DNA of 64,000 nucleotides from a virus (IMGVR_UViG_3300044451_000434:100108-164107); one strand, 5' to 3'; positions 1 through 64,000 are shown, counted from the first letter of the stretch. A program made the numbers and translations. The notes: generated by a model not told the origin, from the letters alone.

Positions 1-1034
1 TCGTCTGTGGTTTTTTGCACATTAGACATGACCTTTACAAGATCGCTGACATACTCCATAGAAACTGCCTGTTTTTGTGCCATCATGGACCTAGCAACAC
101 GTTCAAGCAGATTCATTGCCTCATTCAATTCCCCAATCTCTTGTCGACCAGCCACCTTTTCCATTCCACAAACCCCGTCCTTGCAGAATGTTTCCTCTGC
201 CACCTTGCTGAAACCCTCATTTACGGCTCTAACTTTCTCAACAAGGCTAGCAATCTTTTTGCGAACACCTTCTGGATTCAATATTTCATGAACTAGACAA
301 TCGTGACATGCTGGGTTGACCACAAAACTGTCTTCTATAAATTTGACTCCGAAATTATGTTCAAAAATCTGTTGATCTTTGTGGATGTGAACTTTCTTTT
401 CATCCTTTTTGCATCCGCAAACTGGACAGGGTTCTTCACTAGCGTTAGGAGATTCATGATACTTGCAGAGATGTTCGCCATTGAATCGCTTCTTCTTACG
501 TTCTTTGATGTGTGAGCAAAATTCTTTTGCTGTCGCGGCTCTGTGATGGCATATACTGCAGCATGAATACTGCACCTGACAACCCATCGATGTGCCATTC
601 ACATATCCCTGTTCTATTCCTCTAGCAAGCCTAGGAAAAGCAACGCGATCAACCATATTGATGGTATATATGCCGCCTGCGGCATCGTCGTACCATGCAT
701 GGACAACCTTGCCCCTTGCCTTCTCAATATCGTCATTTTGGTGGTTGACAAAAACTGGAACCCCGATGAATGTTTTGGCAGCATGTTTCAGTTCAGTCTC
801 GCTAAACCAGTCACCATTGTCATTAACCTCATCCTTCTTTATAGCAAATACTTTGACAAATAGATGATCAGGGTGCTCCTTAACGGCTGCAGTTATGTCG
901 AATCCATTCAGATCAACACCAACCTTAGCCGCCTGCTTCTGCAATACATTAGTGTTGAATTCCTCCCAATCCTCAGGTACATTAAGAGCAGTAACCTGCC
1001 TGACTCCGGAAATGGCAAACTTGTTGGGAATCAT
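1..1034 (-). CDS. Prohead (capsid maturation) protease, 3' end truncated by window edge
   Basis: My translation from ATG at 1034 is open to position 1: MIPNKFAISG...VNDNGDWF...VFVNHQNDDIEKARG...GTSMGCQVQYSCCSICHH...EHNFGVKFIEDSFVVNPAC. NH, TSMG and E-x-S-x-V-x-x-PA motifs fit phage prohead serine proteases; lies just downstream of the portal. Not in the ORF track because it has no stop in the window. Confidence 0.8.
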   Translation of the reverse strand, partial: MIPNKFAISGVRQVTALNVPEDWEEFNTNVLQKQAAKVGVDLNGFDITAAVKEHPDHLFVKVFAIKKDEVNDNGDWFSETELKHAAKTFIGVPVFVNHQNDDIEKARGKVVHAWYDDAAGGIYTINMVDRVAFPRLARGIEQGYVNGTSMGCQVQYSCCSICHHRAATAKEFCSHIKERKKKRFNGEHLCKYHESPNASEEPCPVCGCKKDEKKVHIHKDQQIFEHNFGVKFIEDSFVVNPACHDCLVHEILNPEGVRKKIASLVEKVRAVNEGFSKVAEETFCKDGVCGMEKVAGRQEIGELNEAMNLLERVARSMMAQKQAVSMEYVSDLVKVMSNVQKTTD

Positions 1035-1444
1035 GCCTTCAATGTTCTCGGAATTTTCACATCGAACAAATGGTTCAATGTGTAGTTGAATTGATTCTTA
1101 GGATATGGTATTCTGTATTTTTCTGAAAGAAAAGACAGAGCAGAATATATATTGCTAAAATATTTGCCATACGGACTGTATACTTTCGACTCAAATTTTT
1201 GCCAATCGAATGGCAATTTTTTGATGCCTGCGAAAAATGACTTCTTGAGATCTCTAGTTCTTGCTGGCGAGCAGACAACATAATAATCTGAGTTGGTGGT
1301 ATAGTCGTGTCCCTCCCACCTATGGTACGCCCCAGGACCAATATCCCTCTCGTATCTCTTCTTGAGAGGCTCCGTGCGCTGCGTGTATGCCTCTTCCCAA
1401 GTGATGTTGCGGTCACGTATCCTGCGTGCTGAAATCTTCAGCAT
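1031..1444 (-). CDS. Hypothetical protein between portal and protease
   Basis: ORF 1031..1507; internal ATG at 1444 (MLKISARR) reduces overlap with the portal; stop overlaps the protease ATG (ATGA). Confidence 0.65.
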   Translation of the reverse strand: MLKISARRIRDRNITWEEAYTQRTEPLKKRYERDIGPGAYHRWEGHDYTTNSDYYVVCSPARTRDLKKSFFAGIKKLPFDWQKFESKVYSPYGKYFSNIYSALSFLSEKYRIPYPKNQFNYTLNHLFDVKIPRTLKA

Positions 1445-3623
1445 GGGATTCACCTGCTGGCAAGAAAATTTCTGCCACATCTGTGGAAATGACACGGGGC
1501 TCTCCATTATATAAAGATGCAGCAGTTTTGCTCAAAATCCTCCGCTCTTCTATCGCTTCTCTTATATTTGACATGACAACTTGAGAAACTTCATCCGCTC
1601 GACTGTTGAGAGCGTTCTCTTTTATCCTTATAACCCTCCACCCGAGTTGCGCGAGCTTAATGTCCCTTGCTCGGTCACGCTCGATGGCTTCTGGGTCTGA
1701 ATGCCACATTTCTCCATCTGCTTCCAAATCGACCCCTATTTGGGGATATGCAAAATCTAGAAGGAAAGGTTGTCTCTGACCGGGCATGTACTGCTTAAAT
1801 TGTGCAAAAAGTGGATAAGGAACCGCAAGTTGGTTGAGAATAGATGCCAATTTCTGCTCAGGCTTTGTCAAAAATATCTGCGTGGGTTGTGAATGCTTAG
1901 GCATATCTTTTGTCTTGTAACCCTTGCCCTTTTTGAATATCTTTCCAGGCAAAACAGATGCGACTGACGCCATAGGCGGAACTCCAAAGTCGCCACCAGG
2001 AGCAGGGGCTGCGGGCGGAACGCCACCAGGAGGAGAAATCCCCAAATCCATTGGCGGTGCTCCTGACCCAATGGGCGCAGGAGCGGATGGCATGCCTCCG
2101 CCCATGCCTCCCAACCCTCCAAGATCTCCAATTCCTCCCCCGCCAATGCCACCAGAGCCGCCACCTGAAGTGGCACCAAGAACTTGGCCTCCAGCACCAG
2201 CCATAACCTGTTCTTCCCTCATGCGTGAAATCTCAACGTCGAAGTCTATGTCAAACATATCAAGTAACTTTTGTCTGCTGATAACCGTCTTGTCATACAA
2301 CTGCAGGATCTTGTTCAAATATTCAGAGTTGTCACGTAGGCGAAGATCGTTCCACTTTATTTTTGGATACAACCACACGGTTTCATTCAACTGCTTCGAC
2401 TTTGCCGTATCAACAAAACCCTGCATTTGAGCAACAGGCAAGAATATGTTTCTCTCGGCCCAATGCGCCAATTCCATTCGCCAAGTTTCAAGTCTTCTGA
2501 TGAGAGTCTCCACGCCGACAGCAGCACCAGAATAAGCCTGCATCTCTCCGTTGAGCAAGGTTTGATTGAGCATCAAACCGTCAAGCATCTCCTTGCCAAT
2601 ATATTCCATCTGATTGCTTATGTCATGGATTTTCCCAGTTGCACCCTCCCAAGTCATCTCGAATGCGTTGTGAGTAACAATGGTCAAATTTGGATCATTT
2701 GCGACTGCAGCTAGTTGAGCCTGCACATCTGCAATATCCGTCTCATTTGCAGGGCGCTCGGCAGTTCCCACCTTAACTATTCTTATTGGCAATATATGGC
2801 GCTCTGCCACGATCCAGTTCGCTGTCATCAACTTGGTTTTGTATGCAATCGTCATGAAGAGTCGACGCAGCAATGACTCTCCATAAGTTCCATAAGGACT
2901 CCCCTTGTGTCGCAAATGACTCACGCAGCGCGGACTGAGAGGTATGGCCTGCCCAGCAGCAACAAGATCACGAATCTGCGGAGATATCTTGTCATAGACA
3001 TCCTTCGGCTTCTTCTGCTGAACCACTCTACGCAAATCATCATCTGGCAGCATGGCAATTGTTGGGTGGTCAGCAAGTTGCGTGTTTTGAACCTCAACGA
3101 AATCTGGATTGAGAATCATCAGTCTTTTGAATGTTCCACCAGGATGATTGCACACCCTTCCATCGGGAAGTGTTGCTTTGCCTCCACACACTGGGCAGTC
3201 TATTTCCAAAAACACAAAAACATCACCAAGTAAAAAATATTCGTGTGATATCTTTCTGAACCAGTAATCAAGGTTGAGTTTTTCGATCATGTGCTCAAAA
3301 TAGTTTAAGACCTTTCGATCTCTGCATTCTAATTTGAATCCATTCATAGGAAATGTTGCATAAAAATCTATGCCACCAGCAGCCTTAGGCTCGTTTTCAT
3401 AATAAAAACGTGCCCACTGGTAAACTTCTTTACGCCTGCTTGCAATCTGCCAACTCTGTGGCGTATGCAGGGGAGAGAAAAACATCGGTTGGGTGAATAT
3501 GGTGGATACATTCCCGCCCACATACTGAGCCGCTTTGGTCAGCGGCAACGGAACTATTGTTCCGTTTGCATACATCTTGTTGTCCGCAACGAATTCACTA
3601 CTTGTTTTTTTCTTGTTTGCCAT
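1413..3623 (-). CDS. Portal protein with Gly/Pro linker and C-terminal DUF559 (Vsr-like) endonuclease domain
   Basis: Portal-like blocks WARFYYENEP...IDFYATFP, YFLLGDVF, LNPDFVEV, YGESLLRR, PIRIVKVG; position between terminase and protease. C-terminus TKPEQKL...FLLDFAYPQIGVDLEADGEMWH...DRARDIKLAQLGWRVIRI matches the DUF559 pattern. Confidence 0.85.
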   Translation of the reverse strand: MANKKKTSSEFVADNKMYANGTIVPLPLTKAAQYVGGNVSTIFTQPMFFSPLHTPQSWQIASRRKEVYQWARFYYENEPKAAGGIDFYATFPMNGFKLECRDRKVLNYFEHMIEKLNLDYWFRKISHEYFLLGDVFVFLEIDCPVCGGKATLPDGRVCNHPGGTFKRLMILNPDFVEVQNTQLADHPTIAMLPDDDLRRVVQQKKPKDVYDKISPQIRDLVAAGQAIPLSPRCVSHLRHKGSPYGTYGESLLRRLFMTIAYKTKLMTANWIVAERHILPIRIVKVGTAERPANETDIADVQAQLAAVANDPNLTIVTHNAFEMTWEGATGKIHDISNQMEYIGKEMLDGLMLNQTLLNGEMQAYSGAAVGVETLIRRLETWRMELAHWAERNIFLPVAQMQGFVDTAKSKQLNETVWLYPKIKWNDLRLRDNSEYLNKILQLYDKTVISRQKLLDMFDIDFDVEISRMREEQVMAGAGGQVLGATSGGGSGGIGGGGIGDLGGLGGMGGGMPSAPAPIGSGAPPMDLGISPPGGVPPAAPAPGGDFGVPPMASVASVLPGKIFKKGKGYKTKDMPKHSQPTQIFLTKPEQKLASILNQLAVPYPLFAQFKQYMPGQRQPFLLDFAYPQIGVDLEADGEMWHSDPEAIERDRARDIKLAQLGWRVIRIKENALNSRADEVSQVVMSNIREAIEERRILSKTAASLYNGEPRVISTDVAEIFLPAGESHAEDFSTQDT

Positions 3624-3650
3624 GAGATAATACCCTGTAGTGGTTTTTCG

Positions 3651-3839
3651 TCATGATGCCTGCACAGCAACAATCTTGGCTATAGATGCACCACAGTTAA
3701 TACAATTGGACGCTGTTGGGTTGTTGCAACCATTACAAACCGGACAATTTTTCTTCCAGCCTGCCATTGGCTTTTTTTTCTTGCCATCACTAAAAGGGGT
3801 CGAAAAGGGGTCAAATGCGGCGGTTTTAGATGCTGTCAA
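3651..3839 (-). CDS. Small zinc-ribbon protein
   Basis: CPVC-x9-CINC; coupled to upstream gene. Confidence 0.65.
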   Translation of the reverse strand: MTASKTAAFDPFSTPFSDGKKKKPMAGWKKNCPVCNGCNNPTASNCINCGASIAKIVAVQAS

Positions 3840-4807
3840 CCCTTTTTTTTTGATGCAGAAAAATTAAATGGGGCGAAAGTAACGCGACCATCGTTGCCCT
3901 TCAAATCTCCGCGTGCTGCAGACATCCTGGCTTCAAAAGAACGAAACTCAGGAATAAATGGACGTGAACTGCCATCAGCTGGCACACGCAGATCATTACC
4001 GACTGGTATAACCTTATTTACCTCAAAACGATCCTCGATGTAACCGCCGCCCGAAAGACCATGATCTCCATCGAAAGGACGATAATACTTGTCCATCACA
4101 TTGCCACGCCACAATGTTTCAAAATCTATGTCGTAAATACCACCGAAGAAAAACTGATTGCTTTTGTTACGCTCGAGAGCAGAGAGATTGCTCTCCACAT
4201 CTCTTATGATCGGACTTGGTCGAACCTGTGTTGGACCAAAAATAACAGTTTTGTCCATATCACCATGTGAGGCCTGCTTGGTCAAGTTGAAAACATTTTC
4301 CTTGGAAGCAGTCTTGACTGTTTTAATACTCTTCGCAACCCGCTCCGCAAGGATAGCAATCTGCTCATCTGAAGCTTCCACTACCCTGTCAACGGCAGTT
4401 GCTGCTTTTTCAATTGCATCCACTGGAACCACAGATGGAGAAATCATATCAGAATATATTAGGAATGCCCTGTCAACAACATCAGCAGAACTTTCTGAAT
4501 TTTCATCCTGCTGATAAAAATCTTTAAGAGCCTCTTCAAACATGGAGGCGTTAGGTGATGCGCCGAGACGAGGGGCGAAAAAACCATTCCACACCTCATT
4601 GTAACCAGATCCAGGCTCGTTTTCCCTTCTGAAACTATTCAGGAAATCAAACATTTCCGTGTGATTTGAGAATGACGGCAACTCCACTTGTTCCAAGCCC
4701 GCAGTCTGTGGGGCAACCGGATTCGTGGCAAGTGGGTATTCAGGTATGAGCGGCTGCTCTACCTCCGTCGTTCTTGTCTGCGCAAATTTGGAAAGATTGA
4801 ATTTCAA
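3836..4807 (-). CDS. Hypothetical head-module protein
   Basis: 323 aa in coupled operon; MKFNLSKFAQ, VKTAS, FNLTKQAS motifs. Confidence 0.75.
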   Translation of the reverse strand: MKFNLSKFAQTRTTEVEQPLIPEYPLATNPVAPQTAGLEQVELPSFSNHTEMFDFLNSFRRENEPGSGYNEVWNGFFAPRLGASPNASMFEEALKDFYQQDENSESSADVVDRAFLIYSDMISPSVVPVDAIEKAATAVDRVVEASDEQIAILAERVAKSIKTVKTASKENVFNLTKQASHGDMDKTVIFGPTQVRPSPIIRDVESNLSALERNKSNQFFFGGIYDIDFETLWRGNVMDKYYRPFDGDHGLSGGGYIEDRFEVNKVIPVGNDLRVPADGSSRPFIPEFRSFEARMSAARGDLKGNDGRVTFAPFNFSASKKKG

Positions 4808-5445
4808 TTGGATTTCTTGCCTTTTAGCGCTTCAAACATTCTTGTTACGGCACCAGCATCAGAAGACGAATATCTTCTTGACGCATGCCTCGATGCCAAA
4901 GAGTCAAACATGGAAGCAGCCATATCTTTGCTGTTGACTGGAGACTGTGGCTGGGCTTCTTGACGTTCGGCGACAGGCAGAGCAACCACGGGAGCATCTT
5001 TGATGTGGGAGAATGCCTCCTTGTCAAAGATGCTGACAGAGTCTTTGCGAATGAGACCTCTGCCGCCAGATTTGCTAGAAAGAGATGAGACATGAGCGGC
5101 CATCCGCTCCGCAGAGGTAGGCAAGGGCTCTTCCTCTTTGAAAGCATGCTCCTCAACGCTATCCGCAGCAACCCGTGGAGCAGGTGGATCCTTGAACCCA
5201 AAAAGTGTGTCTGATGCAGCTTTTACTCTAAGACTCCCAATATGACCACCTGCATCAATGGTGTGTGAACCTAAAAGTTTATTGCGAATTAATCCGCCCC
5301 TAGAAACCTCTGCCTCATGAGTGCCAGCCACCTTGCGGGCAAAACCTTCAAGCCAAGAGGGCCTGTAAGGCTCGTCGGCCAATTTTTCAACCTTGTCTCC
5401 AAAAAGCTCAGACCGACCTTCATTTTGATTCTTGAAAATTCTCAT
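4804..5445 (-). CDS. Hypothetical head-module protein
   Basis: 213 aa; 4-nt overlaps with both neighbours. Confidence 0.7.
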   Translation of the reverse strand: MRIFKNQNEGRSELFGDKVEKLADEPYRPSWLEGFARKVAGTHEAEVSRGGLIRNKLLGSHTIDAGGHIGSLRVKAASDTLFGFKDPPAPRVAADSVEEHAFKEEEPLPTSAERMAAHVSSLSSKSGGRGLIRKDSVSIFDKEAFSHIKDAPVVALPVAERQEAQPQSPVNSKDMAASMFDSLASRHASRRYSSSDAGAVTRMFEALKGKKSN

Positions 5446-6053
5446 ATTCGGAAACCTGCTTTCTTCAGAGCATCTGCTATGGCAGATTTTCTCATCACGA
5501 AGGCATCATGATGTGCCGAAGCAGCCTTTGTTGGGGCATCTCCTGCAAGATCTGCAAACGAATCATTTTCAGTCGAAGGCTTGATGGCTTCGGGCTTTTT
5601 GCTGCGGAAATTAACTAAATAGTTCCGCCCCTCATGGCTCATTTCTCCATCCAATCCAAACATTGCACAGATCTGACGGCCAATTTCTGAAGCCCTAGAC
5701 TCTGTGATGCGAGACTTTTCAGTCGCCGAAGGTATCATGAAAGACCCACTCAACTGACCTGATCCAATCGAAGATCTCTGCTGAAATATTTTTCTAGAGA
5801 TCTTCGGGTCTGTCAAATGCCTTGGCTGAACACCAAGATCTTCTAAGACTGAAAAAACATGCTCCCTCAAAGACATATCCATTCCCCCGTTCGATGCAGG
5901 CGCCTGATCCTGTGACGGGGCGGATAGAGGAGCTGAACTGCCCGTATCCATATAGACAGACCCTATGTCAGGCTGGGGTATCTGTTCATCTGCCAACTTG
6001 AAAAGTTGGCTCTGCATATGCCTGCGTCGACCTACCGGCAGGAAAGACATCAC
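5442..6053 (-). CDS. Hypothetical head-module protein
   Basis: 203 aa; abuts both neighbours. Confidence 0.7.
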   Translation of the reverse strand: MMSFLPVGRRRHMQSQLFKLADEQIPQPDIGSVYMDTGSSAPLSAPSQDQAPASNGGMDMSLREHVFSVLEDLGVQPRHLTDPKISRKIFQQRSSIGSGQLSGSFMIPSATEKSRITESRASEIGRQICAMFGLDGEMSHEGRNYLVNFRSKKPEAIKPSTENDSFADLAGDAPTKAASAHHDAFVMRKSAIADALKKAGFRI

Positions 6054-6737
6054 TCAGTTCTCCGTGTCAAGAACAGCGTCTATAAATTCCTTGGGCCAAA
6101 CATTGGACCAATATGAACGGAACTTGCCCTTCTGCTTTTCAGTGAGATTGGCTATCTTTACAAACTTCGGAGACCTAGACGCAGCCTTCGCTGACCAACC
6201 GGCCTCCTCGGTCATACCGCTAACTTCTTCAGCATCGTCGGCAGCATAAGATGTGCCGCATGCCTCGCATGAGCCTGACTCCTTTGAGTCATAGCCACAC
6301 CCAGTGGCAGAAACAGCACCCATAGCCTCTGCGATTGCCTCGTCAGTAGAGTCGTCTTCAATTTCCACATCGGTATCGCAATCCTCCGCCAAAACGAGCA
6401 AGACTTCATCGTCATTAACCTTGATCACATCGGCAACCTTGACGGTGTGATACGATTCTGCTTCCTTCTTCTTCTTCTTCTTATATTTGGCGAGTTGCGG
6501 AGAAACCGCGCCCTTCACAGTCTCCTTGCCAACAGATTTTTTTTCCTCATTACCCTCACGCTCCTCGATCTTCTCCCTGATGAAGGCGGGCAATTCTTTC
6601 TTAGCCTCTTTCTTAAATACTTGGTGCGCATCGACTGCAGATGCCTGCTTTTTCATCCCTCCTGCGACATCCTGTATGATGTCATTAAAACTGCGGGACG
6701 GACCACTAACTGAAATTTTGTTGCTGAAGAACTTCAT
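6054..6737 (-). CDS. Hypothetical charged protein (possible scaffold/core protein)
   Basis: AAGGAG RBS; Lys-rich then Asp/Glu-rich segments; several K-x-A motifs. Confidence 0.75.
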   Translation of the reverse strand: MKFFSNKISVSGPSRSFNDIIQDVAGGMKKQASAVDAHQVFKKEAKKELPAFIREKIEEREGNEEKKSVGKETVKGAVSPQLAKYKKKKKKEAESYHTVKVADVIKVNDDEVLLVLAEDCDTDVEIEDDSTDEAIAEAMGAVSATGCGYDSKESGSCEACGTSYAADDAEEVSGMTEEAGWSAKAASRSPKFVKIANLTEKQKGKFRSYWSNVWPKEFIDAVLDTEN

Positions 6738-6774
6738 AATTGCTCCTTTGTTGCTCTTTTCTCTCGAACCTTGA

Positions 6775-7365
6775 TCACATCCCGTCAGGGAGTGATGTTT
6801 TAGTGATTTCCCATGCCTCGTCTCTCAAGCAGGAAGCTGCCACACGCAGCCTGCCTGCAGTCGAAGGATCTTTCGACTGTATATAAGAGGCTACTCTGCC
6901 CATTTCGTTTGAACATCGAACCATTCTGTCAGGAATAGCCATTGAATGCTCTGCTACAGCTTCAGGAATGGCAATCCCCTTCGGAGTACCAGATGCCACC
7001 TTCGTCTCAATTATGGTCTGAAGGTTAAAATCTCCACCCATAGGTTCCTTTTCCCATGATTCACCCGAAGACGCATACTTATTCCAAGTCTTAACATCAC
7101 CAGAAATAGCAGACACGTATTCGCTATGACACTCACTCCATGCCTCCTGAGGGCGCATGCCTTGGGCACGCTTGTGTCTAAAACATCCCTGCCAGCATCT
7201 GCTGTTGCGTACAGCAACCCCCTGTATGCCCATATACTGAGCAGTCTTGACCATACATAGATCAGATGCAACCTTGTCAAGCACGACCGCCTGCGGTTTA
7301 CTGCCCTTGGCGTCAAGTCCGTTGGCGATGAGAACGATGTCCTTGATGATATCTGATATTTCCAT
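6775..7365 (-). CDS. Hypothetical head-module protein
   Basis: 196 aa; N-terminal IANGLDAKG...LDKVAS...VKTAQ. Confidence 0.75.
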   Translation of the reverse strand: MEISDIIKDIVLIANGLDAKGSKPQAVVLDKVASDLCMVKTAQYMGIQGVAVRNSRCWQGCFRHKRAQGMRPQEAWSECHSEYVSAISGDVKTWNKYASSGESWEKEPMGGDFNLQTIIETKVASGTPKGIAIPEAVAEHSMAIPDRMVRCSNEMGRVASYIQSKDPSTAGRLRVAASCLRDEAWEITKTSLPDGM

Positions 7366-7369
7366 GACT

Positions 7370-8374
7370 TTAGGTAACTACAAATTTACGAGTAAATGTC
7401 CTGCTTGGGAAAGAAAATCTAACGATTCTATTCAACAAATAATTTCTCGGCTCGCCAACGGTAGTGTCCCACGAAACAACCACCTGCCTGCGACTGGCTT
7501 GAGAAAAATGCATATCATGTGGTTCAATCTCTCTTGAAATCATTTTGCCACCCTCTGTCAAGTATTCCACAAGCATTGACTGTCTGTTTACTACAGACCA
7601 CCTGACTGCATCGCCAACTCCTGAAAAATTGGGAATTGGAATAGACGTAGAAATCGCAGAATCTGCTCCAGATCTAGCTGGATCTGTGGTTATTTCGACC
7701 CTATCTACGGGAACCTTGTCTGCCTGAGGCGGCGGGATTGAGGCAGCGATCTCCCCTTCAAAAGGCTGGAAAACCTTTTCTGGATCTACGATTTCGGGCT
7801 TCAAAGATGTTAGGGGCATTTTTTGGGCAATCTTATAACTTCTACTAAATATGCAACAGGGCGGATTTTCCTCTCTGCTGAGATAACACTCATCTCCAAC
7901 CCTAAAACCATTTTTGGAAAGCCAGCCATCAGGCAGTTCAACAGCCAAGTTGCATGGCTCAGAGGCCGCAACAGATGTCAAGTCGTGGGGCTTTATCCTG
8001 CCAACCGTCACAATTTTACCTGAAGGATTTACAAAGACCACGTCCAATGGCAAAAATGTATTCATGCCCCAAAAACTATGTCGATCTGGTCGGTCAAACA
8101 CAAAAGCCATACCATGACCGTCTTCCAATTCATGTCTGAACATCAAACCCCTCTCTCTCAGGTGTGGTTTGTCTGCCAACTCAACCACAACTCTAGAAAA
8201 CGGGCTATGCATATTCGGAGACAAAGAAGCCCCCACGAACAAGTCGATCAGCGAAGTCCTCGCACTCATTTTCATCATCAAATTCGAGACGATATCCAGA
8301 TCCATGACGAAAAACATCGGCTCCGGCACCGCGAGCCTGCCTAACCGCTTTATCCAAGTTCCAAGCACGCTCAA
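7370..8374 (-). CDS. DUF192-domain + C-terminal WYL-like domain protein (start uncertain, possibly ~8278)
   Basis: RGLMFRHEL...GMAFVF...SFWGMNTFLPLDVVFV...AVELPDG is DUF192-like; VEYLTEGG...SREIEPH...VVSWDTTVGEPRNYLLNRI is WYL-like. Confidence 0.75.
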   Translation of the reverse strand: MSVLGTWIKRLGRLAVPEPMFFVMDLDIVSNLMMKMSARTSLIDLFVGASLSPNMHSPFSRVVVELADKPHLRERGLMFRHELEDGHGMAFVFDRPDRHSFWGMNTFLPLDVVFVNPSGKIVTVGRIKPHDLTSVAASEPCNLAVELPDGWLSKNGFRVGDECYLSREENPPCCIFSRSYKIAQKMPLTSLKPEIVDPEKVFQPFEGEIAASIPPPQADKVPVDRVEITTDPARSGADSAISTSIPIPNFSGVGDAVRWSVVNRQSMLVEYLTEGGKMISREIEPHDMHFSQASRRQVVVSWDTTVGEPRNYLLNRIVRFSFPSRTFTRKFVVT

Positions 8375-8419
8375 AAGATCCTGAGAGTCTAGATGGTCTG
8401 TCTTTCAGTATTAAAATTC

Positions 8420-8782
8420 TCATCGACGTGATATTCCTGTTTTAGCTGTGTTCTTGATGGCAAAAACACAATCGTCATCGTTAAGAATAACCGCTTCTAG
8501 GAGCCGCTTGCCACTTGCGGTAATCTTTATCATTTCACCTTGCCATTCTGCAAATCCCAAACTCTCTAGATTGATCAACTCGTCAGTTCTCAAGCCAAAA
8601 GGTCTTTTGAATGTGAGAGGCTCCAATCCAGCTTCGCCAGACTTGAAAAGTGAATATAAGACCTTTGCTGCCTTGCCTTTAGGATCACCGAATCCAGATA
8701 TTGCAGACCCCGATCTCTCACGCATAATGAAATCAAGGATAGAACTGTTTGCTACTTTTGGATTCATCCCAAATGCCTCCAC
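8420..8782 (-). CDS. Hypothetical protein, possible winged-helix (likely start ATG 8767)
   Basis: LINLESLGFAEWQGEMIKITASGK resembles a wHTH wing. Confidence 0.55.
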   Translation of the reverse strand: MEAFGMNPKVANSSILDFIMRERSGSAISGFGDPKGKAAKVLYSLFKSGEAGLEPLTFKRPFGLRTDELINLESLGFAEWQGEMIKITASGKRLLEAVILNDDDCVFAIKNTAKTGISRR

Positions 8783-9519
8783 AGGTATTCCCTGTACTTG
8801 TACGGACTTTCATTTTTCGCGTTATCTATAAGATATGGCTCTGTTGCCAACTCTCTCCAATAAAACCCAGGTCTGAAACGAGGTTCATTGTATGCTTCAG
8901 TCCAAGAGCGATATCTGTATTGACTCTTGCGAGCGGTCGAATCACCCTCAATGCTCTCCTCTATATCCCTCCATGGAATCACGCGATCACCCATAGGAAG
9001 ATCTAGACGACCGTATGGACCATCCATAACAGAAGCAGTTTTTTGGGGGGATGAAGCACCGAACAACCCGTGCTTATATGAAAGGCGTGCAATCATGTAC
9101 TCATGAAGAGATATTTTGGAAAGCAGCGCAGATATTTCTGAACAAGTAGGAGTTGGCAGTTTTGCCACATCGAATGAAGCCATAAAGTTTATTATAATTT
9201 CATGCTTCATCTGATCATTTAGCCGATCCTTGGCTGACATGGTGCACAACCCTTCAAGAGCACACACAGCCATTCTTGAACCAACTACAGAGCATGAACC
9301 CGCAGAGGGAATAGATTCAAGAATGCTGCAAAGTGCTGTCCACAGGTCTTCAAGCACAAGAGCCAATTCATCGGCCCTTTTGGAGAGTGCTGATGGGTAA
9401 TCTGAAGCAAGAACCTGAATCTGAATCTGTGGATCAAAAACAACATCAACGCCAATCTCAACGCCGAGTCGTGCGAGTTCGATCTTAGCCTGATCAGGAC
9501 TTATCTTTGGAGTTGCCAT
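8764..9519 (-). CDS. Hypothetical protein
   Basis: 251 aa with AGGAG RBS; QKTAS precedes an aromatic-rich C-terminal segment. Confidence 0.7.
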   Translation of the reverse strand: MATPKISPDQAKIELARLGVEIGVDVVFDPQIQIQVLASDYPSALSKRADELALVLEDLWTALCSILESIPSAGSCSVVGSRMAVCALEGLCTMSAKDRLNDQMKHEIIINFMASFDVAKLPTPTCSEISALLSKISLHEYMIARLSYKHGLFGASSPQKTASVMDGPYGRLDLPMGDRVIPWRDIEESIEGDSTARKSQYRYRSWTEAYNEPRFRPGFYWRELATEPYLIDNAKNESPYKYREYLWRHLG

Positions 9520-9655
9520 CGCACTTTGCTCCTACCAAAGAACTAGAATAATCCTTGTCGTAGATAAGGGTGAAATAACGGCACAAATTCTTGTGGTTTT
9601 TTATTCGCAGATTCTTCAGCACACGAGTTAATTTGTCCGTTGCGATTCTGACCAT

Positions 9656-10177
9656 TCAACCTATCTCCGTGTTCATCATCCCAAAAATGGAATCATCAAC
9701 AATTGCTGCTTTAGATTTTTTAGTTCGGAACGATTTACGTGTAACCTTCTTTTCGGATTGTGGTTGTTTGTCTTTATTTACACACTCATGCTCGCTAGCA
9801 GCATCGGAAGAAACCGAAGCCAAGGGAGAGGAGCATGACAGATATCCGACACTCACTAGTTTCATAGCAGTCTCCATATTTGGATCAGACTTTTTCAGTA
9901 TGAAACGCTGGTTGGGGGCCAATGTTCTCTTCAAAAAAGCGACCATGATACCACCCCCCTTAACATTCAAAAACTCTATTTCATCCTCGGATGTCTTGCT
10001 AGACACCCCCTCATCCGCAGAATCAAATGATATGTAGCCTTTCTTCTTAGCCCACAACACATCCTCGTGAGATGCCAATTCGTCTGGCAAATCAACAACA
10101 ACACCAGGCTTGAACTTCTTTTTTATCGAAGATAAAATCAATTCACCCTTTAGTGTTTTAGAAACTATTACTTTCAT
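9656..10177 (-). CDS. Hypothetical protein
   Basis: 173 aa; ATGA coupling with upstream gene. Confidence 0.7.
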   Translation of the reverse strand: MKVIVSKTLKGELILSSIKKKFKPGVVVDLPDELASHEDVLWAKKKGYISFDSADEGVSSKTSEDEIEFLNVKGGGIMVAFLKRTLAPNQRFILKKSDPNMETAMKLVSVGYLSCSSPLASVSSDAASEHECVNKDKQPQSEKKVTRKSFRTKKSKAAIVDDSIFGMMNTEIG

Positions 10178-10620: not shown

Positions 10621-10623
10621 CAG

Positions 10624-11316: not shown

Positions 11317-11318
11317 TT

Positions 11319-31238: not shown

Positions 31239-33779
31239 TCAGTTGCACTTGGTCCAACCACAAGACCTGCAGGTTACGCAGCCTTCCTGTCTGATCAGGC
31301 TGCACTTATCTTTATTTTCACAAGTTGCGCAAGTCTCTCCCGTAACTTCTGTTCCATCTGGGATGTATTTCTTCAAGGCTCGTGCAACAGACCTGCTGAA
31401 ATTGTTCATGTCTCCCTGAACCTTTTCAAGTTGCTGAACAATAAATTGTATATCTGCACCATGACGCAGGGCAGTCGAAATTATCCTTGTGAGGGCTGCT
31501 TCATCATCAGTTTCCTTTTCATTCAATTTGCTTATTGAAAGTCTGTTGTCAAGTTTGTCTACAAGGTCGATTCTGTATTTGCCCCTAGCTTCCTTCGTTG
31601 TCAGTCCTGAAATGAAAGACTTGGGAACCATCAACTCCTTGCCTCCTCCATCTGATTGGTTTGGGAGAGCAAAAACCTCATATGGCTTACCCTTAAGGAG
31701 CCCAACAAACACCACGAATGGCGACCCTTTAACCTGAATGTGATGAATATCGCAAGCGAGAGTCTCTGGTCTCTTGGGAGCTTTGGTGTTGATGATTTCT
31801 TCGTTCTTTGCGGCAGACGCCTTCTTCTCATCCACAAGAACGCCAGTTCTGCATCCATCGCGATAGATGGTGATGCCCTTGCACCCAGCCTTCCAGGCAG
31901 TTCTATATATCTCATCAACCGCATCAACCGTGACATCATTTGGCAGGTTTATGGTGGAACTGATGGCGTGATCTATATGCTTCTGAACAGAAGCCTGCAA
32001 CTTAACTCTCTTTTTCCAATCAAGTTCAGATGCAGTACTTCCTGCCCATGGGCTCTTGGCTATATCATCTTCTCCTGTGACATCCACCCACATCTTGACC
32101 TTTGGAGGATACACTTTAAACTCCATCCAATGGTCACCATTTTGGTCAACGAAATCGGATCGGAATCCAATGTCTCCTGGATTCCCCTTCTTTCTGCGGA
32201 TGTATGGTATTACCATAAACTGGGGCTCAATGCCAGAACTTGTCTGCGTCAAGATAGAAACCGATCCACATGGGGCGGTAGTTAGAAGAGCGATATTGCG
32301 TCTTCCATATTTCTGCATGTCGGCATAAAGTTCTGTATCTTCAGATTTTATTCGGTTTAAGAACGGATTGTCGGACTCCTTATCTGCATCCCAAACTGGG
32401 AAGGCTCCAATCTCCCTCGCCATGTCAACGCTGCTCCTGTAGGCAGACAATTTCATGGTCTTGTATATCTTTGTGATTGTAGATATTCCATCATCTGAAG
32501 TGTATGGCATTCCCAAAGCTGCAAGGGTGTCTCCAACAGCAGTCAATCCTGTTCCCGTTCGTCTCCCGTTTGATGCAGCACTCCTGATGTTTTTCCACAA
32601 CTCAATTTCCCGCTGACGAAATTTGATTTCTTCAGGATCTTTACTGACCTTATCAATTATTCTGTCGATACATTCGATCTCAAGATCCACCAAGTCGTCC
32701 ATCAACCTTTGGCACACGGCAACATGCTCAGAGAATAACTTGAAGTTGAATTTGGCTTTGCTAGTGAAAGGATTTTCAACATAACTGAAAGCATTCAAAA
32801 GCATCAGACGGCAAGAGTCAAATGCAGACAACGGAATTTCTGAACATGGATTCGTACTGATTGTCTCAAATCCATCAGACGAATAGCAATCAGCAGGGCT
32901 TTCCTTGATGATGTTGTCCCAGAACAGAAGACCAGGCTCAGCCATGTGGTGTGCATTTTCAACAATCAAGCGCCATATCTTCTTGGCATCGACACTCTTT
33001 CTGATCTTTGGCTCTTCCGAATTACACGGCCACTTCTGCTCGTATTCTTCTCCTCTGTCGACTGCCTCTAGGAAATCATCATAAAGCATGACTGAAATGT
33101 TAGCCCCTGTGACCTTTGTCGGGTCTCTCTTCATGACCGTAAATTCTTCGATATCAGGATGGTGGACATCAAGCGTCAACATGAGTGCACCACGTCGACC
33201 TGCCTGTCCAACCTCTCTGATAGAATTCGAAAATCGCTCTGCGAAAGATATCACACCGGTGCTTGTACGGGCGGCGTTTCTTGTGGAACTGCCGTTCGGT
33301 CTGAGGTTTGAAAGATTTAAACCAACTCCTCCACGACGCTTGCTGATCTGAACTAAGCACTCGTCTGCGGACATTATTGACCCATAAGAATCGTGCGGAG
33401 ATGCAACAACATAGCAGTTACTCAGGCTAATGTACTGCTGGTTATTGCCAATCCCGTACATCGGAGATCCCTGTGGCACTATGTATTTAAAGTGATCCAT
33501 CAGACTAAAAAGAAATTCAGCAGAATATGGATTCTTGAACTTTTTAGCCTCTATGCGTGCGAACTCTTTTGCGATCCTCCAGTGCATGTCCTCTGGGGAC
33601 CTTTCAAACAGGTTATTATTTCTATCTCGGAGGGCATATTTGTCCACGAATACTTTTGCAGACAAGTCATCTCCACCGAAGTAGACTGTGCTTGCAGTAA
33701 GAGCCTCCTGATAAGAATATGCAGCCGTTTCGCACGAGCCACATGAACCCCCGCCACAACATTTGTTTTCGTTTTTCAT
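31239..33779 (-). CDS. nrdJ: Class II (adenosylcobalamin-dependent) ribonucleotide reductase
   Basis: PQGSPM, SNCYV, RRGALM, TNPCSEIPL..C, TAPCGSVS, KGITIYRDG; C-terminal Cys cluster; no class I beta subunit nearby. Confidence 0.92.
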   Translation of the reverse strand: MKNENKCCGGGSCGSCETAAYSYQEALTASTVYFGGDDLSAKVFVDKYALRDRNNNLFERSPEDMHWRIAKEFARIEAKKFKNPYSAEFLFSLMDHFKYIVPQGSPMYGIGNNQQYISLSNCYVVASPHDSYGSIMSADECLVQISKRRGGVGLNLSNLRPNGSSTRNAARTSTGVISFAERFSNSIREVGQAGRRGALMLTLDVHHPDIEEFTVMKRDPTKVTGANISVMLYDDFLEAVDRGEEYEQKWPCNSEEPKIRKSVDAKKIWRLIVENAHHMAEPGLLFWDNIIKESPADCYSSDGFETISTNPCSEIPLSAFDSCRLMLLNAFSYVENPFTSKAKFNFKLFSEHVAVCQRLMDDLVDLEIECIDRIIDKVSKDPEEIKFRQREIELWKNIRSAASNGRRTGTGLTAVGDTLAALGMPYTSDDGISTITKIYKTMKLSAYRSSVDMAREIGAFPVWDADKESDNPFLNRIKSEDTELYADMQKYGRRNIALLTTAPCGSVSILTQTSSGIEPQFMVIPYIRRKKGNPGDIGFRSDFVDQNGDHWMEFKVYPPKVKMWVDVTGEDDIAKSPWAGSTASELDWKKRVKLQASVQKHIDHAISSTINLPNDVTVDAVDEIYRTAWKAGCKGITIYRDGCRTGVLVDEKKASAAKNEEIINTKAPKRPETLACDIHHIQVKGSPFVVFVGLLKGKPYEVFALPNQSDGGGKELMVPKSFISGLTTKEARGKYRIDLVDKLDNRLSISKLNEKETDDEAALTRIISTALRHGADIQFIVQQLEKVQGDMNNFSRSVARALKKYIPDGTEVTGETCATCENKDKCSLIRQEGCVTCRSCGWTKCN

Positions 33780-41611: not shown

Positions 41612-42444
41612 GCTAAACTGAAGCCTCCGATAAGGTTGTTTTTGGACAACTGATCCAAATCTGACTTATTTTCGTCGATTTTTTGATCAATATTTGTTAT
41701 CTGTTCCCGAATTTGATTGATTGTATCCTCAATCTCCACGCAGTCAGAACTTTTAGACTCATCGCCCTGCCTGCATGCGACATTGTATGCCTGCTGTTTG
41801 GCGTCTAGTTGTCTTTGCAGATCAGCTAGTTGATCCGCCATCTTCTTACTGCCTCCTTTTAGCGCCTCTTGAATTCTTTTGGTTTGCTCTGTATTCGTAT
41901 CCATGGTCTGCATGGCAACCCCCTTGGCCTGCGGAGAATTCATTCGTCCAGTTGGTATCATCGGTTGCTGTTGTTGCGCTGATTTGATCCACCCCGCATT
42001 TTTGCCGATGCGGATCCAATCCTGTTTGGTCATGGCAAGCTTCAGTTCGGGTGGAGCATTCCACCTACTGTTGTCTTCTATCGGCTCGATTTGTTCCTGC
42101 GTTTGTTCCCGCCAACTACTAGAATTAGAATAAGTCGAACGCAACCCTCTTTTTAATTTATTAAAATCTTCTTTGTCATAATTTTTATAGATTTCAAGGC
42201 ATTTATTTTCAAGCGCTTCTTTGACTTCTTTAGTTTTCAAGAATTTAGTATTAGAACTGTCAAAGTACAGTTCTGGTTCTACTTGATAGTCTCTCGAATT
42301 TTTTTTGTTTACGACATACAGCGTTATGGGGAAAGTTAAAGAAACCCCAGAATCAAGCAGGTCTTGTACTGCTTGTATAATCATGCTTTTATCCACTGCA
42401 GCGTCAGTACGTTTTAATTCATCACTTGCTTTTTTGTTGAACAT
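41608..42444 (-). CDS. Hypothetical protein with internal W-x-x-I-G module and coiled coil
   Basis: MFNKKAS start; MTKQDWIRIGKNAGWIKSAQ internally. Confidence 0.75.
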   Translation of the reverse strand: MFNKKASDELKRTDAAVDKSMIIQAVQDLLDSGVSLTFPITLYVVNKKNSRDYQVEPELYFDSSNTKFLKTKEVKEALENKCLEIYKNYDKEDFNKLKRGLRSTYSNSSSWREQTQEQIEPIEDNSRWNAPPELKLAMTKQDWIRIGKNAGWIKSAQQQQPMIPTGRMNSPQAKGVAMQTMDTNTEQTKRIQEALKGGSKKMADQLADLQRQLDAKQQAYNVACRQGDESKSSDCVEIEDTINQIREQITNIDQKIDENKSDLDQLSKNNLIGGFSLA

Positions 42445-60564: not shown

Positions 60565-60576
60565 GTCACCAATCTT

Positions 60577-60850: not shown

Positions 60851-60937
60851 CCCCCGTGCGCCCCATGTGGGTAATTGTTAAGAATGAGTGGTATGTTTTC
60901 GGAGGTCAAAAGTTGAATGAACTTGGTCTGCTGGTAG

Positions 60938-63872: not shown

Positions 63873-63876
63873 GTTA

Positions 63877-63999
63877 TCACATTGGGGTAATTTTCCAACC
63901 AGATGCAGTCTTCACCCATTCGTGTGATTCCGCTGTTCTTCCGCCAAAAAGTCCTTTTAATCTACTGAAGAAACCTGGTTGACGGGCTCTATCTGTTTT
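63877..63999 (-). CDS. 3' end of a gene starting beyond the window
   Basis: ...PGFFSRLKGLFGGRTAESHEWVKTASGWKITPM*. Confidence 0.6.
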   Translation of the reverse strand, partial: KTDRARQPGFFSRLKGLFGGRTAESHEWVKTASGWKITPM

Positions 64000-64000
64000 G

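What the first reader, a model, noticed from the sequence alone, without database searches (positions are those of the whole stretch)
1..64000. Proteome-wide K-x-A-[SQ] motif: candidate prohead-protease cleavage code
Seen: about 20 otherwise unrelated hypothetical proteins carry K-x-A followed by a small or polar residue, often near the N-terminus or at domain joins: SKFAQ/VKTAS/TKQAS (3836), KKQAS/VKIAN (6054), DKVAS/VKTAQ (6775), YKIAQ (7370), QKTAS (8764), IKSAS (10624), IKTAS/IKTAQ (23003), SKQAQ (25116), SKTAQ (26267), NKKAS/IKSAQ (41608), AKLAS (45766), GKVAS (60938), VKTAS (63877). The protease itself has KKIAS, SKVAE, EKVAG right after its catalytic domain. Established: T4 gp21 and phiKZ gp175 cut many head proteins after short Glu motifs. 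Inference: this protease cuts after K-x-A, a different specificity, and the motif marks a large set of packaged/ejected proteins. Caveat: the motif is short and has background hits (EKKAS in NrdJ).
Basis: partly seen in the sequence, partly recalled or inferred. Interest (0 to 1): 0.82.

Follow-up and report, generated by a model that had tools for sequence, protein, structure and literature searches.

The report
Lys-x-Ala cutting code in megaphage heads
A relative of the giant Bacillus phage G marks its capsid protease, a 1,904-residue protease-led scaffold protein, its portal and several small head-region proteins with a conserved Lys-x-Ala-(Ser/Gln/Gly) motif. This is most likely where its own capsid-maturation protease cuts, but the motif is confined to head-assembly proteins, not proteome-wide, and no cut has been measured.

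Summary
K-x-A-[SQ] is enriched on the 164-kb contig (78 observed, 26 expected) and ranks 2nd and 3rd of 8,000 a-x-b-c patterns. The enrichment is not proteome-wide. It sits in:
- the 1,904-aa protease-led ORF that crosses the window start (23 vs 1.8);
- the portal (3 vs 0.4);
- twelve small genes at 3836-11391 (16 vs 2.2);
- weakly, the 21-28.5 kb block (8 vs 2.5).

Capsid-to-neck, tail, terminase and metabolic genes are at background, so the sites at NrdJ and 60938 are probably chance.

Lys and Ala stay fixed while the middle residue and the flanks vary, in 30 related fusion proteins and in orthologues of the portal and of the 3836, 6054, 6775, 7370, 8764 and 23003 products. Conserved sites bracket the protease domain itself. 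Unbiased scans put K-x-A-S first in the head modules of two cultivated relatives, phage G and Tunturi_5.

The protease has the invariant His/Ser pair and an assemblin-like predicted fold. Its relatives cut by a P3-x-P1 rule, so I read the motif as Lys(P3)-x-Ala(P1)|Ser.

No cleavage has been measured. The scan has already reported this code in related megaphage genomes.

The parts
1..1034 (-). N-terminal 344 aa of the 1,904-aa protease-led ORF (whole ORF = contig 95427-101141, window -4680..1034). The protease domain is about aa 36-262. The body outside the window carries 22 more K-x-A-[SQ] sites.
   Evidence: PHROG 18299 'head maturation protease' E 2.5e-15 and phrog_2774 E 6e-31. 34% identical to phage G gp19. 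23 sites vs 1.8 expected.
738..746 (-). N-H98-Q, the candidate catalytic His
   Evidence: H98 is invariant in 17 relatives. By eye it lines up with the HK97 gp4 FFNH motif.
582..596 (-). G-T-S149-M-G, the candidate catalytic Ser
   Evidence: S149 is invariant. By eye it lines up with HK97 gp4 GMSVGF. An intein is inserted just after this motif in relatives L028-L038.
927..938 (-). K33-Q-A35-A36, the candidate N-terminal self-processing site of the protease
   Evidence: K33 and A35 are invariant in 17 relatives, and P1' is S in most. The site lies in a segment of the model with pLDDT <50. The same place reads VKTAA in phage G gp19 and GKTAA in Tunturi_5 gp331.
246..257 (-). K260-I-A262-S263, the candidate release site at the C-terminal edge of the protease domain
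   Evidence: A262 is nearly invariant. It aligns to LKIAS273 of phage G gp19, and KKVAS264 of Tunturi_5 gp331 lies at the corresponding distance from the N-terminus.
147..158 (-). K293-V-A295-G296, a second site after the protease domain
   Evidence: K-x-A-G is present in 28 of 31 fusion proteins. K293 and G296 are nearly invariant.
1413..3623 (-). Portal protein (736 aa) with a C-terminal DUF559-like domain
   Evidence: Pfam Portal_Mu and PHROG 16240. 3 sites vs 0.4 expected.
3525..3536 (-). Portal K30-A-A-Q33, the candidate cut removing about 32 N-terminal residues
   Evidence: K 0.85, A 0.73 and [SQGN] 0.88 in 33 orthologues, with P2 = A/N/C/T/M. Phage G portal has RKMAS54 just before the conserved core.
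3836..4807 (-). 323-aa protein of unknown function. Sites: K7-F-A-Q (4778-4789), K165-T-A-S (4304-4315), K177-Q-A-S (4268-4279).
   Evidence: K177 site: K, A and [SQ] are 100% conserved in 26 orthologues with P2 variable. K7 site is partly conserved. K165 site is not conserved.
6054..6737 (-). 227-aa protein of unknown function. Sites: K30-Q-A-S (6639-6650), K184-A-A-S (6177-6188).
   Evidence: K30 and A32 are 100% conserved in 16 orthologues with P2 = Q/T/E/V.
6775..7365 (-). 196-aa protein with five sites. The conserved one is K40-T-A-Q-Y-M-G (7237-7248).
   Evidence: 5 vs 0.18 expected. K40, A42 and Q43 are 100% conserved in 11 orthologues with P2 = T/K/Q/E. The K31 site is not conserved.
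7823..7834 (-). K181-I-A-Q in the 334-aa DUF192+WYL protein (7370-8374)
   Evidence: K 0.92 and A 0.92 in 12 orthologues. Domains.
9031..9042 (-). K160-T-A-S in the 251-aa protein (8764-9519)
   Evidence: K 1.0 and A 0.89 in 9 orthologues with P2 = T/I/V.
23003..23971 (+). 322-aa Gly/Ala-rich protein outside the head module. Sites: K5-T-A-S (23015-23026), K84-T-A-Q (23252-23263).
   Evidence: K5, A7, K84 and A86 are invariant in 13 homologues down to 43% identity.
41974..41985 (-). K154-S-A-Q in the 278-aa protein (41608-42444), directly after a W-x-x-I-G module
   Evidence: Invariant in 6 homologues, but inside a fully conserved block, so uninformative. The N-terminal NKKAS (42424-42435) is not conserved.
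31815..31826 (-). K-K-A-S in the ribonucleotide reductase: a background occurrence
   Evidence: Pfam Ribonuc_red_lgC E 1.5e-82. The surrounding region is at background.

Best explanation
K-x-A-[S/Q/G, sometimes A/N] is the recognition site of the phage's own head-maturation serine protease. That protease has the HK97/assemblin fold and forms the first ~260 residues of the 1,904-aa ORF between the portal and capsid genes.

Most likely Lys is P3, Ala is P1, and the bond cut is Ala|Ser.

Inferred sequence of events inside the procapsid:
1. The protease trims its own N-terminus (K33-x-A35).
2. It frees itself from the 1,640-residue scaffold-like body (K260-x-A262, K293-x-A295).
3. It cuts that body at about 20 further sites, including one 25 residues from the C-terminus.
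4. It removes short N-terminal peptides or segments from the portal and from a limited set of small head-region proteins.

Shown here: the enrichment, its restriction to head-assembly proteins, positional conservation, replication in distant relatives, and the catalytic residues and fold of the protease.

Inferred: that the motif is cut at all, by this protease, at this bond, and that the products stay in or leave the capsid.
For: Enrichment and its location:
- 78 vs 26 on the contig. K-x-A-S and K-x-A-Q rank 2nd and 3rd of 8,000 patterns.
- Confined to the fusion ORF, the portal, the genes next to the portal and one further block.
- The flanks of the 23 fusion sites are unrelated, there are no internal repeats, and codon choice is ordinary.

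The same pattern in relatives:
- All 30 complete related fusions carry 7-21 sites vs 1.2-2.1 expected.
- 105 representatives of at least 1,000 aa carry 910 vs 168; 81 are individually significant at P<0.01.
- The motif is sharp. After K-x-A the next residue is S 304, Q 122, G 100. Before x-A-S, K 304 against 55 for the next most common. Between K-x and S, A 304 against 38.

Conservation:
- Motif K and A are conserved at 0.56, against about 0.3 for the flanks and for other K and A residues. Mann-Whitney P = 8e-4 (K) and 1e-4 (A).
- Many sites are kept in 13-29 of 31 sequences with P2 free.
- The same holds in orthologues of the portal and of the 3836, 6054, 6775, 7370 and 8764 products, and in the 23003 family.
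- Sites bracket the protease domain in fused forms and in the free-standing forms, phage G gp19 and Tunturi_5 gp331.

Independent replication:
- Unbiased scans put K-x-A-S first in phage G gp1-21 (12 vs 2.2, P 3e-6; gp22-65 at background) and in Tunturi_5 gp327-333 (10 vs 1.3, P 1e-6).

Placement and the enzyme:
- Sites are enriched in the first 40 residues.
- H98 and S149 are invariant.
- The AF2 model's best Foldseek hits are all herpesvirus proteases and T4 gp21.
- Homologous proteases use a P3-x-P1 rule. SPN3US gp245 cuts after A-X-E with Ser preferred at P1' (PMC10052503). T4 gp21 cuts after I/L-x-E (PMC12991175). Herpesvirus assemblin cutting (V/L/I)-x-A|S is established knowledge, not read here.
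Against: - No cleavage product, N-terminus or virion proteome is available for this phage, and I found no published cut sites for phage G.
- The Foldseek hits are weak (E 0.01-0.03) and Pfam gives no protease family.
- In the AF2 model of aa 440-1400, only about 6 of 17 sites lie in or at the edge of low-confidence segments. That matches the 34% of residues that are low-confidence, so sites are not preferentially in linkers.
- HK97 itself cuts after Lys (FNK|SLGS), so the cut could be after Lys rather than after Ala.
- A closely related fusion (87% identical overall, 94% in the protease domain) has K-I-S-S where the window has the last K-I-A-S.
- The mycobacteriophage I3 protease fusion shows no such enrichment.
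- About a quarter of the representative fusions are not individually significant.
Confidence: 0.72

Rival explanations
1. The motif is cut, but by another protease: a host enzyme, or a second phage protease such as the zinc peptidase next to the terminase in phage G (gp2) or a phage ClpP. The head protease would then have a different, unseen specificity.
For: Phage G annotates a zinc-dependent peptidase in its head region and encodes ClpP/ClpX found in virions (PMC12484599). An earlier report of this scan assigned a different polyprotein tag in another phage to a neighbouring zinc protease.
Against: No homologue of phage G gp2 appears on this contig at BLASTP E<1e-3, though the contig is a fragment. 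The motif follows the head-protease clade through fused and free forms and brackets that protease's own domain, as self-processing sites do in T4 gp21 and SPN3US gp245.
Confidence: 0.08
2. The motif is a short docking element that is not cut. It would bind the capsid's inner face, the portal or the protease, for example to recruit proteins into the procapsid.
For: It is restricted to head-assembly proteins and is often N-terminal. Many sites lie in predicted helices rather than linkers. A second short motif co-occurs with it.
Against: A docking role does not explain 20 or more copies in one chain. It does not explain conserved copies exactly at both edges of the protease domain, or one about 25 residues from the C-terminus. 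Three fixed positions in a four-residue motif with a small residue at the third fit a protease subsite pattern.
Confidence: 0.1
3. The motif is a modification sequon. Candidates are O-glycosylation of the Ser by one of the phage's glycosyltransferases, or a Lys-based modification or crosslink.
For: A glycosyltransferase gene lies near the capsid gene, and earlier notes describe four such genes on the contig. Ser is the commonest fourth residue.
Against: Several of the best-conserved sites have invariant Gln or Gly at the fourth position: K-x-A-Q in 27 of 31 fusions, K-x-A-G in 28 of 31, and KTAQ in the 6775 and 23003 families. These cannot be O-glycosylated. The capsid, decoration and tail proteins, the usual glycosylation targets, lack the motif.
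Confidence: 0.04
4. The pattern is chance, composition or shared ancestry with no function.
For: Outside the head set the motif occurs at background. Some listed sites are not conserved.
Against: No shuffle in 1,000 reached the observed count for the fusion or for the 3836-11391 set. Independent top ranks in phage G and Tunturi_5. Motif K and A are more conserved than other K and A residues of the same protein.
Confidence: 0.02

Closest known systems
Herpesvirus assemblin (UL26 / UL80a protease-scaffold precursor; release and maturational sites (V/L/I)-x-A|S)
   Same: - The protease sits at the N-terminus of a scaffold-bearing chain.
- Candidate sites lie right after the protease domain and about 25 residues from the C-terminus.
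- Ala sits at the position before Ser, and a second fixed residue lies two positions upstream.
- The AF2 model's best structural hits are herpesvirus proteases.
   Different: - P3 is Lys, not a hydrophobic residue.
- About 23 sites rather than two.
- The body is about 1,640 residues with Zn-ribbon-like Cys clusters and unknown folds.
- Bacterial virus.
- The assemblin site rule is quoted from established knowledge, not read here.
T4 gp21, phiKZ gp175 and SPN3US gp245 prohead proteases (cut after I/L-x-E or S/A/G-x-E)
   Same: - One protease processes itself, the portal, the scaffold or core and internal head proteins, mostly by removing N-terminal propeptides.
- P3-x-P1 rule with Ser favoured at P1' (PMC10052503; PMC12991175).
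- T4 gp21 (5jbl) is among the structural hits.
   Different: The P1 residue is Ala rather than Glu and P3 is Lys. The enzyme is sequence-related to the HK97/phage G type. Cleavage here is predicted, not measured.
HK97 gp4 (MEROPS S78) and Bacillus phage G gp19
   Same: - The NH and G-x-S-x-G catalytic motifs line up by eye with HK97 gp4.
- 34% identity to phage G gp19.
- The gene lies between portal and capsid genes.
- Phage G gp19 carries the same sites at the same two places.
   Different: HK97 makes its mature capsid protein by a cut after Lys (FNK|SLGS) and its capsid protein carries its own delta domain. Here the capsid protein has neither a delta domain nor a site, and the protease is fused to a giant body. 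Pfam Peptidase_S78 does not hit.
Protease-punctuated phage polyproteins reported earlier in this scan, and polyvalent proteins (Iyer et al. 2017, PMC5512222, cited in those notes)
   Same: A long head-associated chain carrying many copies of the presumed cutting motif of the phage's own head protease.
   Different: Those cases use L-x-E-type or [L/F]SSG tags and join recognisable enzyme modules. Here the modules have no known fold. No small gene of this contig is found as a module in other fusions. Sites are not concentrated in linkers.

Membership tests
HK97/assemblin-fold prohead serine protease (MEROPS S78-like, clan SH) | Conserved catalytic His and Ser in N-H and G-x-S-x-G type motifs | tested here: met
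   H98 and S149 are invariant in 17 relatives. They line up by eye with the HK97 gp4 motifs.
HK97/assemblin-fold prohead serine protease (MEROPS S78-like, clan SH) | Assemblin-type fold | tested here: inconclusive
   AF2 model mean pLDDT 68.7. All top Foldseek PDB hits are herpesvirus proteases and T4 gp21, with probability up to 0.97, but E is only 0.01-0.03 and TM about 0.2-0.4.
HK97/assemblin-fold prohead serine protease (MEROPS S78-like, clan SH) | Profile match to a curated protease family | tested here: inconclusive
   PHROG 18299 'head maturation protease' E 2.5e-15. No Pfam family at E<=0.01. No PDB sequence match.
HK97/assemblin-fold prohead serine protease (MEROPS S78-like, clan SH) | Gene placed between portal and major capsid genes | tested here: met
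   Order on the minus strand: portal at window 1413-3623, then the fusion, then a small gene (candidate decoration protein), then the capsid gene at contig 93857-94765.
Protease-scaffold fusion (herpesvirus UL26 type) | Protease and scaffold in one chain, with a release site after the protease domain | tested here: inconclusive
   The single 1,904-aa ORF and the conserved K260-x-A262 and K293-x-A-G sites are shown. Scaffold function of the body is inferred only, from its position, its acidic and helical regions, and a capsid protein without a delta domain.
Protease-scaffold fusion (herpesvirus UL26 type) | Cut near the C-terminus that releases a capsid-binding tail | tested here: inconclusive
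   The window protein and 9 relatives have a site 23-27 residues from the end, before a conserved S-[LM]-F-[RS]-L tail. Others have the last site 6-411 residues from the end.
Prohead-protease cleavage code (as T4 L/I-x-E, phiKZ/SPN3US S/A/G-x-E) | Mature N-termini or fragments mapped experimentally to the motif | not testable with these tools
   No proteomic data for this phage. The phage G papers I could read give no cut sites. Gonzalez et al. 2020 is not held.
Prohead-protease cleavage code (as T4 L/I-x-E, phiKZ/SPN3US S/A/G-x-E) | Motif over-represented in head proteins only, conserved in position, and present in the protease itself | tested here: met
   Replicated in phage G and Tunturi_5.
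Cargo polyprotein (modules joined by cleavable linkers) | Sites concentrated at boundaries between folded modules, and modules exchanged as separate genes | tested here: not met
   About 6 of 17 sites lie in or next to low-confidence segments, against 34% of residues. No contig protein matches any of 150 representative fusions at E<=1e-4.

The most novel reading that the evidence does not exclude
K-x-A|S would be one half of a two-part loading-and-release system of phage-G-type megaphages. A second short element, [ILMV]-[ST]-x-x-[DEQ]-W-x-x-[IA]-[GA], is repeated in the disordered part of the fusion and found at the N-termini of several small proteins. It would target proteins into the procapsid, and the K-x-A cut would then release them. 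On this reading the 1,904-aa chain and the marked small proteins form a predictable internal-head or ejected proteome that can be read directly from the sequence of uncultivated megaphages.
Probability: 0.25. Interest if true: 0.78.

Novelty: new variant of a known kind. Interest (0 to 1): 0.6.

Why it matters
Maturation by a head protease with a short P3-x-P1 code is well known for T4 and phiKZ-type phages. For the phage-G lineage, which includes the largest cultivated phage and many lake and soil megaphages, I found no published specificity.

A Lys-x-Ala|Ser rule would give three things:
- a way to predict from sequence alone which proteins of uncultivated megaphages enter the capsid and how they are trimmed;
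- an explanation for how a capsid protein without a delta domain is served by a 1,900-residue disposable scaffold;
- a case in which a bacterial-virus protease shares the Ala|Ser preference of herpesvirus assemblin.

It can be tested at once in two cultivated phages, phage G and Tunturi_5. The finding is not unique to this window, because the scan has already reported the same code in related genomes.

Tried and rejected
- DNA similarity to known phages: none.
- Pfam on the protease domain and on ten motif-bearing small proteins: no families for the protease or most others. PDB sequence search: none.
- Internal repeats as the source of the 23 sites: rejected, BLASTP self-comparison finds none.
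- A DNA-level motif as the source: rejected, synonymous codons are mixed as elsewhere.
- 'Beads on a string' reading: not supported. Sites are not enriched in low-confidence linkers, the body has no PDB fold match, and no contig protein recurs as a module in 150 representative fusions.
- Extending the code to mycobacteriophage I3, which has the same gene order and a 1,408-aa protease fusion: no K-x-A-S enrichment, only a weak hint of [KR]-x-A-[AG].
- Orthologues of the 23003 product in five larger related contigs: none found, as these are fragments. The word-index protein search then gave 14 homologues.
- Literature: searches for a K-x-A phage protease motif and for Tunturi_5 found nothing relevant. 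The phage G proteomics paper gives no cut sites and its supplements are not held. Gonzalez et al. 2020 could not be read.
- Whether the cut follows Ala or Lys cannot be settled by sequence. HK97 cuts after Lys, while the P3-x-P1 rule of the other relatives favours Ala.

Full report
**What the window is.** The window is the last 64 kb of a 164,107-bp viral contig. Its major capsid protein (contig 93857-94765, minus strand) is 50% identical to gp27 of Bacillus phage G. Weaker matches are to a 485-kb uncultured phage, to Tunturiibacter phage Tunturi_5 and to cluster-C mycobacteriophages. The contig is therefore a fragment of a phage-G-type large phage.

On the minus strand the head module reads, in order:
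- small genes at 11391-3836;
- portal at 3623-1413 (Pfam Portal_Mu, PHROG 16240);
- a 1,904-aa ORF at window 1034 to -4680;
- a small gene, probably a decoration protein;
- the capsid gene (PHROG 2522, E 2e-66).

**The observation.** In a crude set of 160 ORFs (52,748 aa) covering the whole contig, K-x-A-[SQ] occurs 78 times against 26.4 expected from per-protein composition. In an unbiased scan of all 8,000 a-x-b-c patterns, K-x-A-S (54 vs 18.9) and K-x-A-Q (24 vs 7.6) rank second and third, behind a poly-Ser pattern.

The enrichment is not proteome-wide. With 1,000 shuffles per group:

| Group | Observed | Expected |
|---|---|---|
| 1,904-aa ORF | 23 | 1.8 |
| Portal | 3 | 0.4 |
| Twelve genes at 3836-11391 | 16 | 2.2 |
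| 21-28.5 kb block | 8 | 2.5 (P 0.006) |
| Capsid-to-neck genes | 3 | 3.0 |
| Giant tail genes | 15 | 9.9 |
| 11.3-21 kb | 1 | 0.5 |
| 28.5-64 kb | 9 | 5.6 |

The one at 63877 lies in an ORF truncated by the contig end. Excluding the fusion, sites are concentrated in the first 40 residues: 13 vs 2.7 expected, and 2.8-fold above the rest of the same proteins. My start codons are those of the longest ORFs, so this figure is approximate.

**Trivial causes.** The 23 sites of the large ORF have unrelated flanks, and BLASTP of the protein against itself finds no repeat. Codons at the motif's K, A, S and Q are mixed in the same proportions as elsewhere in these genes, with Ser using both TCN and AGY. 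Selection therefore acts on the peptide, not on a DNA word.

**The protease.** Residues 36-185 of the large ORF match phrog_2774 (E 6e-31), and residues 56-185 match PHROG 18299, 'head maturation protease' (E 2.5e-15). Residues 71-263 are 34% identical to phage G gp19, which a 2025 paper lists as the head maturation protease (PMC12484599). In 17 relatives His98 (V-N-H-Q) and Ser149 (G-T-S-M-G) are invariant. By eye they correspond to the F-F-N-H and G-M-S-V-G-F motifs of HK97 gp4.

An AlphaFold2 model of aa 1-300 has mean pLDDT 68.7 and a disordered N-terminus of 39 residues. Its best Foldseek matches in the PDB are all herpesvirus proteases and T4 gp21. The scores are weak, with E 0.01-0.03. 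Pfam gives nothing. I accept the assignment as a prohead serine protease of the HK97/assemblin fold, with the fold only moderately supported.

**Relatives of the fusion protein.** A scan of IMG/VR gave 37 loci at 47-94% identity in the protease domain. All 30 complete ORFs are 1,797-2,371 aa and carry 7-21 K-x-A-[SQ] against 1.2-2.1 expected.

Across them the motif is sharp:
- After K-x-A the next residue is S 304, Q 122, G 100.
- Before x-A-S the residue is K 304, against 55 for the runner-up.
- Between K-x and S it is A 304, against 38.

An exhaustive HMMER search of 1.84 billion representatives found 2,678 relatives of the protease domain. The best 150 are mostly 1,500-2,700 aa long. The 105 of at least 1,000 aa carry 910 sites against 168 expected, and 81 are individually significant at P<0.01.

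**Positional conservation.** In a MAFFT alignment of 31 fusions, many sites are kept with a free middle residue:
- K-[LVGITK]-A-S in 28 sequences;
- K-[TEILQ]-A-S in 29;
- K-[EQKR]-A-Q in 27;
- K-x-A-G in 28.

At the window's 23 sites, K and A are identical in 0.56 of the 28 sequences that remain once the two closest relatives (87% identical overall) are left out. The flanking columns are at 0.27-0.40, and other K and A residues of the same protein at 0.33 and 0.28. Mann-Whitney gives P = 8e-4 for K and 1e-4 for A.

In orthologues from the same loci, K and A are fixed at these sites:
- portal K30: 0.85 and 0.73, with P2 = A/N/C/T/M;
- K177 of the 3836 product: 1.0 and 1.0;
- K30 of the 6054 product: 1.0 and 1.0;
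- K40 of the 6775 product: 1.0 and 1.0, always K-x-A-Q-Y;
- K181 of the 7370 product: 0.92 and 0.92;
- K160 of the 8764 product: 1.0 and 0.89.

Other sites in the same proteins are not kept. These include K31 of 6775, K165 of 3836 and portal K591. Not every occurrence is functional.

Outside the head module:
- Both sites of the 23003 product are invariant in 13 homologues down to 43% identity.
- NKKAS of 41608 is lost in homologues, and its IKSAQ lies in a wholly invariant block.
- AKQAS of 45766 is lost, and its AKLAS is only partly kept.

**Sites around the protease itself.** K33 and A35 are invariant, in the disordered N-terminus. The K260-x-A262 site, right after the last strand, has a nearly invariant A262, and the K293-x-A295-G296 site has nearly invariant K293 and G296. 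The free-standing proteases of phage G (VKTAA at 42, LKIAS at 273 of 300 aa) and Tunturi_5 (GKTAA at 32, KKVAS at 264 of 287 aa) have sites at the same two places. This is the pattern expected of self-processing. SPN3US gp245 removes its own C-terminal propeptide (PMC10052503), and T4 gp21 is limited by autoproteolysis (PMC12991175). In the window protein and nine relatives, a last site lies 23-27 residues from the C-terminus, before a conserved S-[LM]-F-[RS]-L tail. In the others the last site is 6-411 residues from the end.

**Independent replication in cultivated phages.** In phage G, an unbiased scan of gp1-gp21 puts K-x-A-S first (12 vs 2.2, P 3e-6) and K-x-A-A third. gp22-gp65 are at background, 4 vs 2.3. 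In Tunturi_5, whose capsid protein is 31% identical, the scan of gp327-gp333 again puts K-x-A-S first (10 vs 1.3, P 1e-6). The carriers are the 'DNA ejection protein' gp328, the protease gp331 and the 528-aa gp332 between the protease and capsid genes. The 485-kb uncultured phage shows the same clustering upstream of its capsid gene. Mycobacteriophage I3 has the same gene order and a 1,408-aa protease fusion but shows no such enrichment. The code therefore belongs to the phage-G branch, not to all relatives.

**How it most likely works.** Homologous head proteases read two residues spaced by one and cut after the second:
- A-X-E in SPN3US, with Ser preferred at P1';
- I/L-x-E in T4;
- (V/L/I)-x-A|S in herpesviruses (established knowledge).

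K-x-A-[S/Q/G] fits this rule with Lys at P3 and Ala at P1, so I infer a cut between Ala and the fourth residue. HK97 itself cuts after Lys (FNK|SLGS), so a cut after Lys cannot be excluded.

On the favoured reading, the mature protease is about aa 36-262. The remaining ~1,640 residues include Cys clusters, Pro/Ala-rich and acidic tracts, and a helical C-terminus. They would be cut into more than 20 pieces. The capsid protein has no delta domain and no site. The body is therefore most simply a giant disposable scaffold or core, possibly with pieces that stay in the head.

The 'modules joined by linkers' picture is not supported:
- In the AF2 model of aa 440-1400 (mean pLDDT 64), only about 6 of 17 sites lie in or next to low-confidence segments. 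That is the same as the share of such residues.
- The model has no PDB fold match.
- No protein of the contig recurs inside any of 150 representative fusions.

**Rivals.**
- Another protease reading the motif is possible, but it would not explain why the motif follows this protease clade and brackets its domain.
- A docking role does not explain the number and placement of copies.
- A glycosylation sequon is contradicted by invariant Gln or Gly at the fourth position of the best-conserved sites.
- Chance is excluded for the head set.

**Novelty.** I found no paper describing this specificity. The key phage G capsid paper could not be read. This scan has already reported the same code in related megaphage genomes (e1-5632285, e1-5376602, and first-reader notes e1-5894712 and e1-5376587). 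This window is therefore a further, independently tested instance.

What this report adds:
- a region-by-region limit on the claim;
- the sites bracketing the protease in both fused and free forms;
- the replication in Tunturi_5 as well as phage G;
- the survey of 105 representatives;
- the negative tests of the linker model.

Noticed in passing
L028:8363-10600 and L038:8819-10600 (relatives; absent in the window): In relatives L028-L033 and L035-L038 the protease domain is interrupted just after the catalytic G-T-S-M-G motif by a ~400-550-aa intein. It has a Hint domain plus a LAGLIDADG homing endonuclease.
   Followed up: partly
window 23003-23971 (aa 16), 23994-24629 (aa 9), 39699-40136 (aa 6), 41608-42444 (aa 138), 11319-13202 (aa 481); fusion ORF aa 567-693 (contig, outside the window): A second short motif, [ILMV]-[ST]-x-x-[DEQ]-W-x-x-[IA]-[GA], occurs 6 times against 0.055 expected in shuffles. 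It has the same pattern as the T-E-x-Q-(L/F/W) repeats in the disordered part of the fusion. In 23003 it follows a K-x-A-S site, and in 41608 it is followed by IKSAQ. It may be a capsid-targeting element.
   Followed up: partly
window 3525-3545 (portal), 7228-7248 (6775 product); homologues of the 23003 product: The extended form K-x-A-Q-Y recurs. It reads K-x-A-Q-Y-x-G in the portal and the 6775 product, which are otherwise unrelated, and K-T-A-Q-Y in homologues of the 23003 product (the window copy has KTAQQ).
   Followed up: partly
window 1413-1770 (portal aa 619-736): The portal protein ends in a DUF559 / MTES_1575 endonuclease-like domain, an unusual fusion for a portal.
   Followed up: no
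window 7370-8374: A head-region gene encodes DUF192 (E 4e-25) fused to a WYL domain. A conserved K-x-A-Q site lies between the two.
   Followed up: no
window 297-560 (protease aa 159-246): Eight invariant Cys plus conserved His form what look like two zinc-binding clusters, inserted in the protease domain after the catalytic Ser.
   Followed up: no
window 23003-23971: The 322-aa protein and its homologues contain Gly/Ala-rich hydrophobic stretches resembling membrane segments. It may be a membrane-active ejected protein.
   Followed up: no
L001:4790-5545 (contig 94790-95545, minus strand): The gap between the fusion ORF and the capsid gene holds a minus-strand ORF, probably starting at MALIPVHH. 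It is likely a decoration protein. The 211-aa plus-strand ORF there is probably spurious.
   Followed up: no
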